In this document: positions 33,139-40,409 of the stretch, piece by piece
Numbering within the stretch: position 1 is the stretch's first letter
Layout of the letters: every line of letters starts with the position of its first letter
IMG/VR virus record: IMGVR_UViG_646311924_000007
Span: 1-64,000 of that record
Source: a virus
Taxonomy: Duplodnaviria; Heunggongvirae; Uroviricota; Caudoviricetes
Length of the DNA: 64,000 nucleotides
Direction: 5' to 3' (one strand)
The notes under the pieces: generated by a model
Databases searched by the model: none
Seen by the model: only the letters and a program-made list of their open reading frames with translations
What the model was told of the DNA's origin: nothing
Program-made: the position numbers and the translations under genes

Positions 33139-33494
33139 AGCACCACGTCCTGTGTGATAGTTATATCCCTGATACGAATGGATATTTTCAACTTATCAAA
33201 AGCATCTCCCTCGGCTACTGACAAGCCAGAAATCGGTATGTCGGGTAAATCTACCGTCAGTTTTTGCAAAAGCATTGCCTCAACCGCAATTTGAACATGC
33301 GACAAGTTGGTCGGTTCGTGTTTAAACTGCGGTAAAACATTGCCCCATGACGGATCTCCGTATACCTCACCCTGATAAGTGTTTAGCCACTCATATAAAC
33401 GAGCGCCCCAGGCCTCCTCCTGGGACTCATACGTTTTTACGCCGGATAACTCCAGCGTCAGCAAAGGATCAATTTCGTTATTGTTGGCCATCAA
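33135..33494 (-). CDS. morphogenesis protein (119 aa)
   Basis: Synteny upstream of baseplate genes. Confidence 0.4.
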   Translation of the reverse strand: MMANNNEIDPLLTLELSGVKTYESQEEAWGARLYEWLNTYQGEVYGDPSWGNVLPQFKHEPTNLSHVQIAVEAMLLQKLTVDLPDIPISGLSVAEGDAFDKLKISIRIRDITITQDVVL

Positions 33495-36400
33495 TCAACT
33501 CTCGCGTAGTCATTCATCAACGGATCATCAATTGACAGTGGTACCGTGCGCATAACGCCCGGCTGAGGCGTGCTGACCTTTACGACAGTTCCCTGGCCTT
33601 TCGCCGAGTCTTTGGTGTGCTCTTCAATCCTGGCAAGCAATGAGGTCATCTGCGCAAACAGCCGCTTCGTTTCACCATCAAGTGAAACGGTATTATCAGC
33701 CAACTGCATTGTCGGCTTGGCACCGGAACCGCCAAGGTCACTAATAACCTGCCCGTCTATCTGCATACGACCGGTTGGTTGCTGCAAATCGTTGGCGGCA
33801 GTCGTCACCTGGGACGTGGAGGCTGGTTCAGGCGCATTATTTTTCCGCATCCCCGGCGAGTTGCGGAGTTTATCGAATAGTCCATCAATCCCCATTTGTG
33901 CGCCGAGCTGGTCAAAGTAACTTGAGTTGTTGGCCACCGGACGCGCCTCTTCAACTGGCATCGGGGTATCAACATACACATTGCCAGCTGCTGTTGCGGT
34001 CCCCTTCCCTCGTGCACGTTCTTCTAGCGTTCCCTGAACGACTTCCCGACGCATCCCCCGGCCATTCATGAATTTGTTGACCAGATCGTTAACGCCAACA
34101 GCATTGCCGATTTTGTCTACCAAACCGCCTTTCTCAAACGGGCTATCACCAGGGGTAAACGCCAGACCAGTAGACTGATCGATAACGGCGTTATCAGGTA
34201 GTGGTTCCCTCACTCCATATTGCGCCCCACCCTGTGCTCCTGCCCCAGGTGTATAGATTTCACCACCTAAATAGCGAGCACGATGAGTATTGACCTTGAT
34301 CGCGTACTCACGGTTTTCCTTCGATAAGTCACCGGTGCCTTTTTTCCACTTATTAATAGTGCCAAACCCAGCGTTATATGCAGTGATGGCCTCGTTTAAG
34401 TCTCCATTGGCTTGCTTCAGATACTTGCTCATGAGAAGAGCCGCAGCTTCTGCCGATTTCACAGGATCAAACGATTCACCTTCAGCTAAGCCAGTCTCTT
34501 CACGAGCAATGCCCGTGAACTGAAACATTCCTAGAGCACCAGTTTGTGATTTTGCGTACGGATTACCACCAGATTCAGTTGCAGCAATCGCGTAAAGAGT
34601 GCCTTCAGGAAGACCATATTTATTCTCCAGTTCAGCAAAATACGGAGCTAACTTATCGAGATTTGCCTTACCTTCAGCGCCAAGGCTTCCGACTTTTACA
34701 TCTAAGTTGCCATTATTGTAGGTATCAGCAGCTTTCTGAATGTCATTCCTGGTGCCGGTGGTATTACGCGACGATGATGACGAGCTATTTTGTCCAATAG
34801 CTGAATCAATTTTCCGCACCGCGCTATTGCCCGTTTCTACGGCATTTGCATTGATAATCTGATTGGCAGTTTCTTTAACTGTTTTATTGCTATCTTTCGC
34901 CGTGTCCAGTGCCGCATTTATCACGCGGGTAGCAATATTAGTCTGTTTAGCATCGGATTCAGTTTTAGAATCAGATGTCTCCTGGTGGCTATTAACCGGA
35001 GCTTTTAACTCTGGAGTGATTTCTTTTGCATTAGCCTCGCCGATCGGATTGGGTATTTTTGATACAATCATTGCCGCAGGGGTATTTTTAACGGCATCAA
35101 CCGCTGCATCTAATGCTTTACCGGGTAAATTTTTAACCCCATCCCAAATATTACCAGCCGCCTCTTTAATGTGTTTTCCTGGGTTCTTAATGAAGTCAAT
35201 TGCACTATCAATTGCATCACTGAAAACCTGTTTCAGGTTATCGACAGTAAAGAAGTCTTTTATGGCATCCAGCTTTTCAAGCAACTTATTAGATGTATCG
35301 CTAAACCATGCTGAAACAGCATCACCAATCTTTGCTGTGTAATCATCGAACTTGGTAGAAATGGTGTCGCCAAGGTTAGAAATATATGTTTCTAAGTTGG
35401 TAACCCCACTATCAATGGCCTGGGCAATACTTTCCGTCGAAAATGATTGCAACATATTGCCGATATCCTCAAATCCAAGTGATTTGAGAACATCACCAAT
35501 AGCACTGCTAATACCAGATACCAGTCCCCCCATATCGAGAACATTGGCTAACGTATAAGCGGCTTTTTGCTGGAATGATGGATCTTGTCCTGATTTAAGC
35601 CCAAACGCTCGACGTTGCGCTTCTGTATCATTCCAACCGGTTACCGCATCATAAATACCTCCAGCCACTGTGCCGACTAGGGGAATTGCGCGTAACGCCC
35701 CTTTACCAACTGCCTTTAATCCAAGTTTACCTGCTGCCCGGGCAGCCAAATCTCCGCCTTCATGGGCGAGAGTCTTCTTGCCACCACCGCGTAGCATTCC
35801 TACAAGTTTCTTTGCCCCCAGAGCGCCAAAAGCGAGTGCTCCAGCTTTTTTCAGCATGCCACGCCCCATTAACAACGACGCGACGCCACCGGCCCCCTTC
35901 CCTAACAGGCTAAATAGTTTGGACAGCAAGCCGCCCTTCTTTTTACCGGTGTTTTTGGCTATCTGATCAAGGGCGCGGAGAATCTTGTCATTGCCCTCTT
36001 TAATTTCGCTGGTCTGCTCCTGAAGTTCCTGAACCGTCCGTTTTTGGGTGTTAACCTGAACGACATCGGCACTATTTTGCGATTTACGCCTAAAAAAACC
36101 TTTTCTACGGCTGTTATCGTCATTGCCACGAATCACATCGGCAATAGACTTTCTGGCACCATTAAGCGATCCACCAACTTCTTTTGATATCCCGCCAAGC
36201 TCCTTCCCTGCTGCCCACAATGGACCAGCAACGGCATAACCTAACGCATCGACAGCACGAGTCTCTGAAGGGTTGCCTATGCCTTCAGCTACTTTTGACA
36301 GTTTTTTTAATAAACCTGATTCAGCATTTAGACGCTCATCATCCTCTTTGCGCCTGGCCTTTTCAGCACGTTCAGCACGGGCATCTTCCGCTGCGGCCTT

Positions 36401-36883
36401 ACTCCCTGACTTTCCAATAAAACGACCACGCGCATCGCGTTGGTTTTGGCTTTTTTGCGCACCGCCTTTTTGACCGAACATTTCGCGAGCGTGTTCGGCT
36501 GCTTCGGTCCGTTGCGCCTTTACATCTTCTGTTATAGCCTTCTTGCGTCGTTTTTTACCCTTTCGCGTAGTTGATTTGGCCTGCGGTTCCTGTAGAGCAA
36601 CATCCTCCTGAACTACACGAGAAACGTCCCCTAAATTAAGCCGTTTCATTGCCTCAACAATAGGGTCCACTGATGGCGCATTGGCCACAAAGTCTGGCCG
36701 GGAATTTTCGATTGTGCGATTTAATGCCGACACACTACGAGAGACAGGATCAACTGTAGCAACTCGCCCCCCTTTCAAATCTTCAACGGCTTCCCGAATA
36801 CCTGCAAGCTCTTCCAGCTCTTTTGCGCTGGCGGTTTCAACCGTCCTTATCACATCGTCAATGTTGGCGTTTTTTCTTTCCAT
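33491..36883 (-). CDS. sit: tape-measure-like structural injection protein with lytic transglycosylase domain (1130 aa)
   Basis: SLT-type motif region (LYAIAATESGGNPYAKSQTGALGMFQF); Ala/Gly/Lys-rich central region; size as recalled for P1 Sit. Confidence 0.8.
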   Translation of the reverse strand: MERKNANIDDVIRTVETASAKELEELAGIREAVEDLKGGRVATVDPVSRSVSALNRTIENSRPDFVANAPSVDPIVEAMKRLNLGDVSRVVQEDVALQEPQAKSTTRKGKKRRKKAITEDVKAQRTEAAEHAREMFGQKGGAQKSQNQRDARGRFIGKSGSKAAAEDARAERAEKARRKEDDERLNAESGLLKKLSKVAEGIGNPSETRAVDALGYAVAGPLWAAGKELGGISKEVGGSLNGARKSIADVIRGNDDNSRRKGFFRRKSQNSADVVQVNTQKRTVQELQEQTSEIKEGNDKILRALDQIAKNTGKKKGGLLSKLFSLLGKGAGGVASLLMGRGMLKKAGALAFGALGAKKLVGMLRGGGKKTLAHEGGDLAARAAGKLGLKAVGKGALRAIPLVGTVAGGIYDAVTGWNDTEAQRRAFGLKSGQDPSFQQKAAYTLANVLDMGGLVSGISSAIGDVLKSLGFEDIGNMLQSFSTESIAQAIDSGVTNLETYISNLGDTISTKFDDYTAKIGDAVSAWFSDTSNKLLEKLDAIKDFFTVDNLKQVFSDAIDSAIDFIKNPGKHIKEAAGNIWDGVKNLPGKALDAAVDAVKNTPAAMIVSKIPNPIGEANAKEITPELKAPVNSHQETSDSKTESDAKQTNIATRVINAALDTAKDSNKTVKETANQIINANAVETGNSAVRKIDSAIGQNSSSSSSRNTTGTRNDIQKAADTYNNGNLDVKVGSLGAEGKANLDKLAPYFAELENKYGLPEGTLYAIAATESGGNPYAKSQTGALGMFQFTGIAREETGLAEGESFDPVKSAEAAALLMSKYLKQANGDLNEAITAYNAGFGTINKWKKGTGDLSKENREYAIKVNTHRARYLGGEIYTPGAGAQGGAQYGVREPLPDNAVIDQSTGLAFTPGDSPFEKGGLVDKIGNAVGVNDLVNKFMNGRGMRREVVQGTLEERARGKGTATAAGNVYVDTPMPVEEARPVANNSSYFDQLGAQMGIDGLFDKLRNSPGMRKNNAPEPASTSQVTTAANDLQQPTGRMQIDGQVISDLGGSGAKPTMQLADNTVSLDGETKRLFAQMTSLLARIEEHTKDSAKGQGTVVKVSTPQPGVMRTVPLSIDDPLMNDYARVD

Positions 36884-38482: not shown

Positions 38483-39073
<591 letters not shown>

Positions 39074-39077
39074 TTAA

Positions 39078-39102
39078 CCGATTCTACGAGTAGTCATTTG
39101 TG
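39078..39102 (-). promoter_or_regulatory. putative late promoter (minus strand CACAAATGACT-N5-TAGAAT)
   Basis: Motif about 30 nt upstream of ATG at 39049. Confidence 0.4.
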
Positions 39103-39107
39103 ACAGG

Positions 39108-39611
39108 TCATTTTGCGCGCTTCAGGCAGCCATCTTCAGGTGCCGCGTTGAAAAGCTCTGCGGCCTTACGTAGCGTAAATGTTGCGATTTTTTTTCCGTC
39201 TACGTATGCATCGAATGTTTTAACTTCCATATCAGGGGTATCTGACCAAAAACCATACCAGTAACTATCACCCACAGAGGAACCGATAGAACTGATAGGA
39301 TATTCATCATCACCAACTTTCAGCGTTATTTGTTCTTTTTTAGCATCAAATGACTCACCACCTGGTTCTGTTTTCATGAGTGTGAGTAGTCGTGTTCCTA
39401 CTTGATTGGGATCCGTATTATTAAATCCAACATCGCACTCAAATGTAAGCGTATAATTATCTTTGCTGGAAACAGCATAAGAGCGAACACCATGAGTCTC
39501 GCTGGTGGACCATTTGCTTACATTTGCCATTGACGAAAAAGGAGTAAGCAAAGCAAGAATTAGAAAAAATCGTTTGATGCGCATTAATTTATCTCCTTTG
39601 TATATTAACAA
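39108..39611 (-). CDS. secreted protein with signal peptide (167 aa), sim-like position
   Basis: N-terminal signal sequence RFFLILALLTPFSSMA; located between tail block and immI. Confidence 0.5.
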   Translation of the reverse strand: MLIYKGDKLMRIKRFFLILALLTPFSSMANVSKWSTSETHGVRSYAVSSKDNYTLTFECDVGFNNTDPNQVGTRLLTLMKTEPGGESFDAKKEQITLKVGDDEYPISSIGSSVGDSYWYGFWSDTPDMEVKTFDAYVDGKKIATFTLRKAAELFNAAPEDGCLKRAK

Positions 39612-39648
39612 TTATTATCAATATTTTAATTAATTACCCATCATATAT

Positions 39649-40296
39649 TTACCATTCATAGGGTAAATTAAGCGCTTTTAAACCTTGCTGGAAGGTATTA
39701 AGTGAGCCGTTCTTTTGTTGTTCCATTTTTTCGCGTGCCGCTTTCTCATACTGCTCCATCCGTTGGTTATACTCTTGCAATTCTTCTGGAGAGAGGTTTC
39801 CCATTGGGGAGTTTGTACCCGGCCCCCTGGCCCGCTCTTCAAGCGTACCCTGAACGTTTTGATAGCGCATTCCTGGGGCATTTCTGATTGAGTCAATGCC
39901 ATTTCTTCCAACATCTTCTTTATTAACGGCATTGCTCGCCACCAGCACCCCCCAGCTAGGGATAGCAAAATCAGGAGCGGTTTCGCATGCCTTTACCATA
40001 TAATCGAAAGAGCTTCGATTGATCTCGTTTGCGTCGGGATTTAATAGGCGAGAATATTGATATTTAGCATTTTCGTTGGTTGCGACTTTATACAGTTCTT
40101 GCTGCACCATCGCTTCAGAAAGTTTAAGGCGTTTCATATCTGACAGTAACTTCTTGCGCATGGATTCGTCTTGACTGACAGCAAAGCCGTAAACGTGCCC
40201 AAGGTATTTCGTATAATCGGTACAAATCTCCTTTACGCTTGATGCTGCATTAACAGTCCCAGCCATAAATAATAACGGTAGTAATAGTTTTCTCAT
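39649..40296 (-). CDS. secreted protein with signal peptide (about 215 aa from MRKLLLPLLFMAGTVNA), sim-like position
   Basis: Signal peptide; internal segment GMR..VQGTLEERARG shared with Sit. Confidence 0.5.
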   Translation of the reverse strand: MRKLLLPLLFMAGTVNAASSVKEICTDYTKYLGHVYGFAVSQDESMRKKLLSDMKRLKLSEAMVQQELYKVATNENAKYQYSRLLNPDANEINRSSFDYMVKACETAPDFAIPSWGVLVASNAVNKEDVGRNGIDSIRNAPGMRYQNVQGTLEERARGPGTNSPMGNLSPEELQEYNQRMEQYEKAAREKMEQQKNGSLNTFQQGLKALNLPYEW

Positions 40297-40392
40297 TATA
40301 ACCTCACCTGCCTTATAACCCATTTAGGGTACATATTTTCGCCTTTAAAAAAAAGAGGTTATTAGATCCAATTGTGTATTTATTAAGCATAT

Positions 40393-40409
40393 AATGCTCT
40401 AATAAATTT
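40393..40409 (+). promoter_or_regulatory. C1 operator (AATGCTCTAATAAATTT) upstream of immI
   Basis: 16/17 match to consensus. Confidence 0.7.

What the first reader, a model, noticed from the sequence alone, without database searches (positions are those of the whole stretch)
39649..40296. Periplasmic protein upstream of immI shares a near-identical motif with the C-terminal region of Sit
The signal-peptide protein contains ...NAPGMRYQNVQGTLEERARGPGT..., matching Sit (33491-36883) at ...GRGMRREVVQGTLEERARGKGT..., and Sit has a second PGMR repeat nearby. A secreted decoy carrying a segment of the injection/transglycosylase protein would be a plausible superinfection-exclusion mechanism, blocking incoming phage at the periplasmic step. 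That fits the sim-like position between the tail genes and immI.
Basis: partly seen in the sequence, partly recalled or inferred. Interest (0 to 1): 0.5.

Follow-up and report, generated by a model that had tools for sequence, protein, structure and literature searches.

The report
Periplasmic protein copies tape-measure motif
A P1-like prophage exports to the periplasm a small protein whose flexible linker carries a conserved ~30-residue copy of a motif from the phage's own injected tape-measure protein Sit; this points to an untested way of blocking superinfecting phages by molecular mimicry.

Summary
The ORF at 39649-40296(-) encodes a 215-aa protein with a Sec signal peptide. Its residues 122-168 align with Sit residues 927-969: 23/47 identical, including QGTLEERARG (BLASTP E=1e-8; shuffle p~8e-7; profile-profile E=3.8e-8). 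A 44-aa motif query against 2.3 Gb of phage DNA hits only sit genes of P1-like phages below E=0.01, so this is not a generic low-complexity motif. Ten of 16 identical residues use different codons, and both proteins keep the motif in divergent Salmonella and Klebsiella aerogenes lineages. That indicates old, selected similarity rather than recent gene conversion.

The protein is not SimC-like. It is the full-length form of the gene whose 5' stub is annotated in P1 as simA. P1's simB/simC replace the rest of it and a conserved YfjT-like periplasmic partner gene. AlphaFold gives a confident helical N-domain, with the motif in a low-confidence, probably disordered linker. The family is tiny, confined to P1/D6-like phage-plasmids, and has no known fold or family.

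Superinfection exclusion by mimicry of Sit is the best-supported reading. It rests on inference only: expression, exclusion and the motif's partner are all untested.

The parts
39649..40296 (-). Full-length SimA ('SimA-long'): 215-aa exported protein (phrog_3933). P1 simA is its 5' stub.
   Evidence: ORF. First ~45 aa are nearly identical to P1 SimA. Annotated CDS in Ro157c2YLVW. phrog_3933 E=2e-136. Family alignments.
40246..40296 (-). Sec-type signal peptide, MRKLLLPLLFMAGTVNA | ASS (aa 1-17).
   Evidence: Read directly from the sequence. Conserved n-h-c pattern and NA|AS cleavage site across the family. No signal-peptide predictor was available.
39922..40239 (-). Conserved all-helical N-domain (aa 20-125) with invariant C25 and C104.
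39814..39882 (-). Core of the Sit-like linear motif, NAPGMRYQNVQGTLEERARGPGT (aa 139-161). The full alignable segment is aa 122-168 = 39793-39933.
   Evidence: AF2 pLDDT 44-51, i.e. flexible.
39652..39792 (-). Variable C-terminal module (aa 169-215), mostly one long helix. Replaced or deleted in other alleles.
   Evidence: Family alignment. 163-aa allele ends at ...ERARGPGVAP*. AF2 helix 170-208, pLDDT 53-66.
33491..36883 (-). sit: tape-measure / injection transglycosylase protein, 1130 aa.
   Evidence: ORF. Pfam SLT domain aa 748-857, E=6.6e-27. About 95% identical to P1 Sit. Sit is the ejected TMP of P1 (PMC12810830).
33998..34066 (-). Sit motif copy 1, NGRGMRREVVQGTLEERARGKGT (aa 940-962). 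The alignable segment is aa 927-969 = 33977-34105.
   Evidence: Identical in P1 Sit. One of the few invariant islands of the Sit C-terminal region.
33836..33895 (-). Sit motif copy 2 (half motif), MGIDGLFDKLRNSPGMRKNN (aa 997-1016). It lies in a ~50-aa insertion specific to the E. coli P1 lineage.
   Evidence: E=0.02; alignment gap in the other lineages.
39108..39584 (-). Co-conserved partner gene: 158-aa YfjT-like protein with a signal peptide (phrog_3429).
   Evidence: PF27224:YfjT is recorded for the homologues in every related locus.
40361..40409 (.). Regulatory region shared with P1: the counterpart of the predicted PsimA promoter (40361-40387, - strand) and the C1 operator Oc4, AATGCTCTAATAAATTT (40393-40409).
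   Evidence: Coordinates transferred from the P1 annotation through the alignment, which is about 98% identical here. Function was not tested.
39081..39099 (-). Counterpart of the P1 late promoter LPsit. It places the cassette outside the late tail operon.
   Evidence: P1 annotation and identical sequence. Homology with P1 breaks at about 39102.

Best explanation
The gene encodes the ancestral, full-length SimA of P1-like phage-plasmids. It is a Sec-exported periplasmic protein built from three parts:
- a conserved helical N-domain containing two invariant cysteines (a possible disulfide);
- a flexible linker;
- a variable C-terminal module.

The linker carries a ~30-residue short linear motif, [IF]-x-N-[AS]-[PR]-G-M-R-x-Q-x-V-[QE]-G-[TS]-L-x-E-R-A-R-G-x-G-T. 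This motif copies one of the few invariant islands in the C-terminal region of Sit, which otherwise varies and is predicted to be disordered.

Sit is the tape-measure/injection protein. Its C-terminal end leaves the tail first and enters the periplasm of an infected cell.

Most likely mechanism: the prophage expresses the protein from the sim-locus promoter region, outside the late tail operon. In the periplasm, the motif competes with the same motif on the Sit of an incoming P1-like phage for whatever partner that motif must engage. The partner could be a host envelope or periplasmic factor, another Sit subunit, or a tail-tip component. Competition would abort peptidoglycan passage or channel formation, and so exclude the superinfecting phage.

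Shown here: the homology, its specificity, its age and its conservation; the export signal; the domain layout; the locus; and that the gene is an alternative allele to simBC.

Inferred: expression in lysogens, the exclusion phenotype, and the competitive mechanism.
For: - The motif similarity is significant and specific.
- Ten of 16 identical residues use different codons, so the amino-acid sequence, not the DNA, is being maintained.
- Both proteins keep the motif in divergent lineages: L004 and L007 (Salmonella) and L005 (Klebsiella aerogenes). The most divergent family member found, P0040, also keeps the full motif and ends just after it. A divergent Sit fragment, P0036, keeps it too.
- A frequent 163-aa allele keeps the N-domain and motif and stops right after the motif.
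- Within SimA-long, the motif lies in a low-pLDDT linker yet is more conserved than its flanks. That is the signature of a short linear interaction motif.
- There is a signal peptide and paired invariant cysteines.
- The gene sits in the sim cassette, between LPsit and the C1 operator/c4 promoters, which are shared with P1 at about 98% identity.
- The P1 sim locus is known for superinfection exclusion (PMC8546580, citing Devlin 1982 and Kliem & Dreiseikelmann 1989). It is dispensable for lytic growth (PMC10695390). It is a recognised hypervariable region (PMC9603915).
- Sit is ejected on tail contraction (PMC12810830).
- There are precedents for exclusion proteins that target tape-measure or ejection proteins: T4 Imm binds the TMP (bioRxiv 10.64898/2026.03.06.709160), and P22 SieA acts against gp16/gp20 (PMC10883804).
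Against: - There are no experimental data for this gene.
- Historically, the P1 sim phenotype maps to simC, which is unrelated to this protein.
- Some D6-like, Klebsiella and Cronobacter alleles keep only the first half of the motif (N-A-P-G-M-R-x-Q). They replace the QGTLxERARG half with a cysteine-containing module. If they still work, the full copy is not required.
- The two copies show no within-genome co-variation: 10,824 of 40,320 permutations reached the observed value, and 3 of 24 for the full motif.
- Sit's motif shows no sign of escape diversification.
- The motif's partner is unknown. AF2 of the Sit C-terminal region is too poor (pLDDT 24-46) to suggest any contact.
- Expression in the lysogen is inferred only from a predicted promoter in the P1 annotation.
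Confidence: 0.4

Rival explanations
1. SimA-long binds the incoming Sit directly rather than competing for a third party. Two versions are possible. In one, the motif is a self-association element of Sit, so the soluble copy co-assembles with ejected Sit as a dominant-negative subunit. In the other, the helical N-domain blocks Sit's SLT transglycosylase, as T4 Spackle blocks the gp5 lysozyme, while the motif helps docking. The outcome is still superinfection exclusion.
Against: No fold or sequence match to Spackle or any inhibitor family. AF2 of Sit aa 740-1130 shows no confident docking of the motif on the SLT domain. Nothing indicates that the motif self-associates.
Confidence: 0.2
2. The shared motif serves a need common to both proteins in the periplasm that has nothing to do with exclusion. 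Examples are recognition by a host chaperone or protease (a processing or module-boundary site), or peptidoglycan or membrane anchoring. In that case SimA-long and its YfjT-like partner have another lysogenic-conversion or envelope function.
For: Family alleles diverge exactly after G-M-R-x-Q or exactly after E-R-A-R-G-x-G, as expected of a module boundary or processing site. Some alleles keep only the half motif. The motif is repeated in Sit. No co-variation was found. YfjT-family proteins also occur in unrelated prophages (family name; own knowledge of E. coli K-12 CP4-57 yfjT).
Against: The motif was found nowhere else in 2.3 Gb of phage DNA, nor among 277 word-sharing candidates from 5.8 billion proteins. 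A generic host-recognition signal should be more widespread. The locus is the known exclusion locus of P1.
Confidence: 0.2
3. Evolutionary relic: a fragment of sit, or of simA, was once copied into the other gene by illegitimate recombination, and it persists without function in one of the two.
For: P1-like genomes are mosaic. This very locus is a recombination hot spot.
Against: Synonymous sites are largely randomised (10/16 codons) while the residues are kept. The motif is retained in both families across lineages whose flanking linker residues have diverged. It is among the invariant columns of both alignments.
Confidence: 0.05
4. Chance or compositional resemblance.
For: The segment is short and rich in G, R and E.
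Against: E=1e-8 pairwise, Gumbel p~8e-7, profile-profile E=3.8e-8, and a database-wide tblastn that hits only sit.
Confidence: 0.01

Closest known systems
P1 SimA (P1_gp043, 52 aa, 'putative superimmunity accessory function')
   Same: Same locus, same upstream region (C1 operator Oc4 and the predicted PsimA), same signal peptide. The first ~45 residues are nearly identical.
   Different: P1's ORF ends after 52 codons, because the rest of the gene and the YfjT-like partner were replaced by simB-simC. The P1 stub has neither the N-domain nor the Sit-like motif. The window gene is the intact form, which is also the form found in the divergent D6-like, Salmonella, Klebsiella and Cronobacter lineages.
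P1 Sim/SimC superinfection-exclusion protein
   Same: An exported protein encoded in the same cassette position. The locus is associated with a block between adsorption and DNA entry (PMC8546580).
   Different: No sequence similarity. SimC lacks the motif. No exclusion phenotype has been demonstrated for SimA-long.
Exclusion proteins that act on tape-measure or ejection proteins: T4 Imm, P22 SieA (plus HK97 gp15 and TP-J34 Ltp, from my own knowledge)
   Same: A prophage- or phage-encoded envelope protein proposed to interfere with the injected TMP or ejection proteins at the periplasm/inner membrane.
   Different: Those are membrane proteins or lipoproteins that bind the target. None is reported to carry a copy of a target segment. 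SimA-long is predicted to be soluble and periplasmic, is not homologous to any of them, and would act by mimicry.
T4 Spackle (periplasmic inhibitor of the tail-associated lysozyme gp5; own knowledge)
   Same: A small, exported, helical protein, in a setting where the incoming phage brings a peptidoglycan hydrolase (Sit's SLT domain) into the periplasm.
   Different: No sequence or fold match. There is no evidence that SimA-long touches the SLT domain.

Membership tests
SimA of P1-like phages (phrog_3933 / 'simA domain protein') | Sequence homology to the family over its whole length | tested here: met
   phrog_3933 E=2.4e-136 over 1-215. 27 clusters at E<=3e-47. Only 11 representatives at E<=1e-3, all appearing to belong to this same family, in an exhaustive HMM search of 1.84 billion proteins.
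SimA of P1-like phages (phrog_3933 / 'simA domain protein') | Position between pmgC/LPsit and the C1 operator-c4-icd-ant region, transcribed divergently from c4 | tested here: met
   The same synteny with pmgC-tub-pmgB-sit holds in all related loci.
SimA of P1-like phages (phrog_3933 / 'simA domain protein') | N-terminal Sec signal peptide | tested here: met
   MRKLLLPLLFMAGTVNA|ASS, conserved across the family. Judged by inspection only; no predictor was available.
P1 SimC/SimB superimmunity proteins | Sequence homology to SimC or SimB | tested here: not met
   BLASTP: no hit between SimA-long and SimB or SimC at E<=10. The YfjT-like protein's best hit is to SimB at E=0.077, over signal peptides only.
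Superinfection-exclusion proteins (functional class) | Expression from the prophage, and reduced DNA entry or plating of superinfecting phage | not testable with these tools
   Only positional and regulatory homology to the P1 sim locus is available. PADLOC has no model that matches.
TMP-targeting exclusion proteins (Imm, gp15, Ltp, SieA type) | Membrane anchoring (TM helices or lipobox) and physical binding to the TMP or ejection proteins | tested here: not met
   There is no lipobox cysteine at the cleavage site (NA|ASS), and the model shows no hydrophobic helix after the signal peptide. Binding was not testable.
PTP-like phytase (PF14566) | Score above the Pfam gathering threshold and a catalytic HCxxGxxR(S/T) loop | tested here: not met
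   26.6 bits against a cutoff of 27. Only profile positions 46-132 of 158 are covered. No CX5R motif occurs in the sequence. Rejected as a spurious helical match.
Sit / P1-type tape-measure protein (phrog_2533) | Homology beyond the motif (SLT domain, TMP repeats, conserved C-terminus) | tested here: not met
   The only shared segment is aa 122-168 against Sit 927-969. SimA-long is not a Sit fragment.

The most novel reading that the evidence does not exclude
SimA-long would be the first superinfection-exclusion factor that works by molecular mimicry. It would be a soluble periplasmic decoy displaying a short linear motif copied from the incoming phage's tape-measure protein. The same motif would then mark the site on Sit that engages a still unknown envelope partner needed for P1 genome delivery. 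The partner could be fished out with the motif peptide.
Probability: 0.3. Interest if true: 0.75.

Novelty: new variant of a known kind. Interest (0 to 1): 0.5.

Why it matters
How P1's tape-measure protein Sit crosses the periplasm is unknown. Sit is unresolved in the P1 virion structure (PMC12810830). The mechanism of exclusion at the P1 sim locus has never been worked out.

A conserved, specific 30-residue motif shared by Sit and an exported prophage protein gives both problems one experimental handle. The experiments are simple: motif mutants in either gene, peptide pull-downs, and escape mutants.

The analysis also corrects the annotation of a classic genome. P1 simA is the stub of a longer gene. 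That gene is intact in about 80 PLSDB plasmids that carry the full cassette; 124 match it at least in part.

If the mimicry mechanism holds, it adds a new principle, a decoy copy of an injected protein segment, to the known ways prophages exclude relatives.

Tried and rejected
- **Pfam PTP-like phytase hit.** Sub-threshold, partial, and no catalytic motif. Rejected.
- **NCBIfam, PADLOC and PDB sequence search.** Nothing found.
- **Exhaustive HMM search of 1.84 billion representatives with the family profile.** Only 11 proteins at E<=1e-3, all appearing to belong to the same family, so no remote relatives.
- **Within-genome co-variation of the two motif copies.** Tested across 8 lineages and not significant: 10,824/40,320 permutations, and 3/24 for the full motif.
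- **Homology of SimA-long or the YfjT-like protein to P1 SimB/SimC.** None.
- **AF2 of Sit aa 740-1130, to look for docking of the motif on the SLT domain.** Everything after the SLT domain has pLDDT 24-46, so it is uninformative.
- **Word-indexed searches with the Sit C-terminal region and with a motif profile.** They returned only Sit or SimA fragments. This is useful as a specificity control but not for finding new carriers.
- **Genome-contig scan.** Four loci, nothing new.
- **P0040, the most divergent member.** It lies on contigs of about 1 kb, so its cognate Sit could not be examined.
- **Lobocka et al. 2004 (P1 genome paper).** Not held in the library.

Full report
**What the window is**

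The region is a P1-like punavirus. 39000-40500 matches Escherichia phage vB_EcoM-Ro157c2YLVW over its full length at 96.3%. It matches P1 only at its two ends.

The gene order on the minus strand is sit (33491-36883), pmgB, tub, pmgC (38483-39049), then two small ORFs (39108-39584 and 39649-40296). The divergent c4/icd/ant, kilA and repL genes follow on the plus strand.

**Checking the observation**

The ORF 39649-40296(-) encodes 215 aa starting MRKLLLPLLFMAGTVNA|ASS, with a GGTGAGG ribosome-binding site upstream.

BLASTP against Sit aligns aa 122-168 with Sit 927-969. Identity is 23/47, including the 10-mer QGTLEERARG, at E=1e-8. A second, weaker match (E=0.02) falls on Sit 997-1016, which carries the second GMR.

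Further tests of significance and specificity:
- In 2000 shuffles the best local score was 76, against 99 observed (mean 40, sd 5.6; Gumbel p~8e-7).
- Of 86 ORFs of at least 120 aa in the window, only Sit stands out.
- The PHROG profiles of the two families hit each other's proteins at E~1e-7.
- hhalign of my two family alignments gives 95% probability, E=3.8e-8.
- tblastn of the 44-aa motif against all 50,697 phage records returns the gene itself, then only sit genes of P1-like phages (E=7e-5 to 5e-3), then noise at E>=1.
- A motif-profile search of the 5.8-billion-protein index found only SimA and Sit fragments among 277 word-sharing candidates.

**Age and selection**

At the DNA level the core is not a recent copy. 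Of 24 codons starting at G-M-R, 16 encode the same residue, and 10 of those 16 use different codons.

P1's own Sit carries the identical motif although P1 lacks the long gene.

In divergent phage-plasmids both proteins keep the motif:
- L004, Salmonella: SimA-long has NSRSMRHQQVEGSLMERARGLGT; Sit has NSRGMRHEVVQGTLAERAYGKGT.
- L005, Klebsiella aerogenes: NAPGMRHQKVEGSLMERARGPG against NAPGMRHQAVQGTLAERAYGKGT.
- L007, Salmonella: similar.
- Within-genome BLASTP E-values run from 2e-7 to 6e-10.

The most divergent family member recovered, P0040, still has NAPGMRHQAVKGSMAERARGDGT and ends shortly after it. A divergent Sit fragment, P0036, has NAPGMRHQVATGSIADRAYGTGT.

In the Sit C-terminal alignment, G-M-R, V, G, R-A, G and G are among the few invariant columns between the SLT domain and the conserved C-terminal ~90 residues. 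In the SimA-long alignment, N139 and R144 are invariant and G142, M143 and Q146 nearly so, while the neighbouring linker varies.

I tested whether the two copies co-vary within genomes. They do not do so significantly: 10,824/40,320 permutations for the first 14 positions in 8 lineages, and 3/24 for the full motif in 4 lineages.

**What the gene is**

P1 SimA (52 aa) equals the first ~45 residues of this protein and then diverges.

The DNA alignment shows about 98% identity with P1 from the c4 side down to window ~40185. This stretch includes the annotated C1 operator Oc4 (window 40393-40409) and the predicted PsimA (40361-40387). Homology is then lost. It resumes at ~39101, exactly at the LPsit late promoter upstream of pmgC.

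The ~1.08-kb cassette in between therefore replaces P1's simB and simC. It consists of most of this gene plus the 158-aa signal-peptide protein at 39108-39584. It is unrelated to SimB and SimC and has somewhat lower G+C, 0.35-0.42 against ~0.47.

All divergent lineages examined carry the long gene followed by a YfjT-family gene upstream of pmgC-tub-pmgB-sit. These are Salmonella, Klebsiella aerogenes, a JGI metagenome contig, and Cronobacter phage JK004. The long form is therefore ancestral, and P1 simA is a remnant.

The two cassettes are alternative alleles of similar frequency:
- In PLSDB, 124 plasmids match this cassette, 80 of them over at least 80% of its length. 141 plasmids carry P1-type simBC.
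- Among the IMG/VR loci retrieved and parsed, 23 have the 215-aa allele and 13 have a 163-aa allele ending ...ERARGPGVAP*. One more (L047) has a 165-aa variant, and 24 have the P1-type stub. The rest are D6-like variants.
- The 163-aa allele is followed by a different YfjT-like paralogue and an extra 394-aa ORF. This suggests that N-domain plus motif is the retained core.
- D6-like, Klebsiella and Cronobacter alleles keep ...N-A-P-G-M-R-x-Q and then switch to a cysteine-containing module.

**Structure and relatives**

AF2 with a 16-sequence alignment gives three regions:
- a confident helical N-domain, aa 20-125, pLDDT 85-94;
- low confidence across the motif, aa 130-170, pLDDT 44-51;
- a moderately confident C-terminal helix.

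An exhaustive HMM search of 1.84 billion representatives finds 11 proteins at E<=1e-3, all appearing to belong to this same family.

AF2 of Sit aa 740-1130 resolves the SLT domain, but everything after it has pLDDT 24-46. That fits an extended or disordered tape-measure tail and gives no clue to a partner.

**Mechanism**

P1 Sit is the tape-measure protein. It sits in the baseplate core and tube and is ejected on contraction (PMC12810830). By analogy with other tape-measure proteins (my own knowledge), its C-terminal end lies at the tail tip. If so, that end, carrying the SLT domain and the motif, should be the first part to reach the periplasm.

The sim locus of P1 is associated with a block to DNA entry (PMC8546580). 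It is dispensable for lytic growth (PMC10695390) and is a recognised hypervariable region (PMC9603915).

Exclusion proteins that act on tape-measure or ejection proteins are established: T4 Imm binds the TMP, and P22 SieA acts against gp16/gp20.

Together, the most economical reading is a prophage-expressed periplasmic protein that interferes with incoming Sit through the shared linear motif. I favour competition for the motif's partner (confidence about 0.4).

The rivals are:
- direct binding or poisoning of Sit, or inhibition of its SLT domain (0.2);
- a shared periplasmic processing, chaperone or anchoring signal unrelated to exclusion (0.2);
- a non-functional relic (0.05), contradicted by the conservation pattern;
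- chance (0.01), contradicted by the statistics.

Expression, export, exclusion and the partner are all untested. The half-motif alleles and the lack of co-variation are genuine cautions.

**Novelty**

I found no paper that mentions the long SimA or the shared motif. Databases call the protein hypothetical or 'simA domain protein'.

As an exported prophage protein at a known exclusion locus, it is a new variant of a known kind. The mimicry mechanism, if confirmed, would be new.

Noticed in passing
window 40140-40323 (-) compared with P1 (L001:3009-3167): P1's annotated simA (52 aa) is the truncated 5' remnant of the 215-aa gene. Homology between P1 and the window breaks at about 40185 and resumes at about 39101, so simB/simC are a cassette replacement.
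   Followed up: yes
window 39108-39584 (-): A 158-aa protein with a signal peptide (phrog_3429; homologues flagged PF27224 YfjT). It is co-conserved with SimA-long in every lineage examined. Its function is unknown, and it has no match in my Pfam copy, NCBIfam or PADLOC.
   Followed up: partly
L037:10001-12258 (also L034-L046): A common 163-aa allele of SimA-long ends right after the motif (...ERARGPGVAP*). It is followed by a different YfjT-like paralogue (168 aa) and an extra 394-aa ORF. In L037 a TnpB-like 402-aa ORF lies immediately upstream.
   Followed up: partly
window 39678-39968 (-), alternative frame: A 96-codon open frame overlaps the 3' half of the gene. The 205-aa 'variants' in Logan assemblies (P0002, P0004, P0007, P0008, P0017) are frameshifts into this frame, some before and some after the motif. 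They are probably assembly or sequencing errors, or slips in G-runs.
   Followed up: no
window 33836-33990 (-), Sit aa ~965-1016: The second GMR repeat of Sit lies in a ~50-aa insertion present only in the E. coli P1 lineage. Salmonella, Klebsiella and Cronobacter Sit proteins have a single copy.
   Followed up: partly
Sit homologues P0028 and P0033 against window 34313-34642 (-): The SLT domain of Sit is mosaic: some relatives carry a clearly different SLT variant joined to the same C-terminal region.
   Followed up: no
window 39100-40300: The cassette has lower G+C (0.35-0.42) than the flanking tail and immunity genes (~0.47). This fits the published note that P1 variable regions are AT-rich.
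   Followed up: no
L011 and L012 (JGI metagenome and Logan contigs): In these divergent phage-plasmids SimA-long follows directly after a 169-aa gene, with no ant/immI genes in between. The conserved linkage is therefore with the tail module (pmgC-tub-pmgB-sit) rather than with immI.
   Followed up: no
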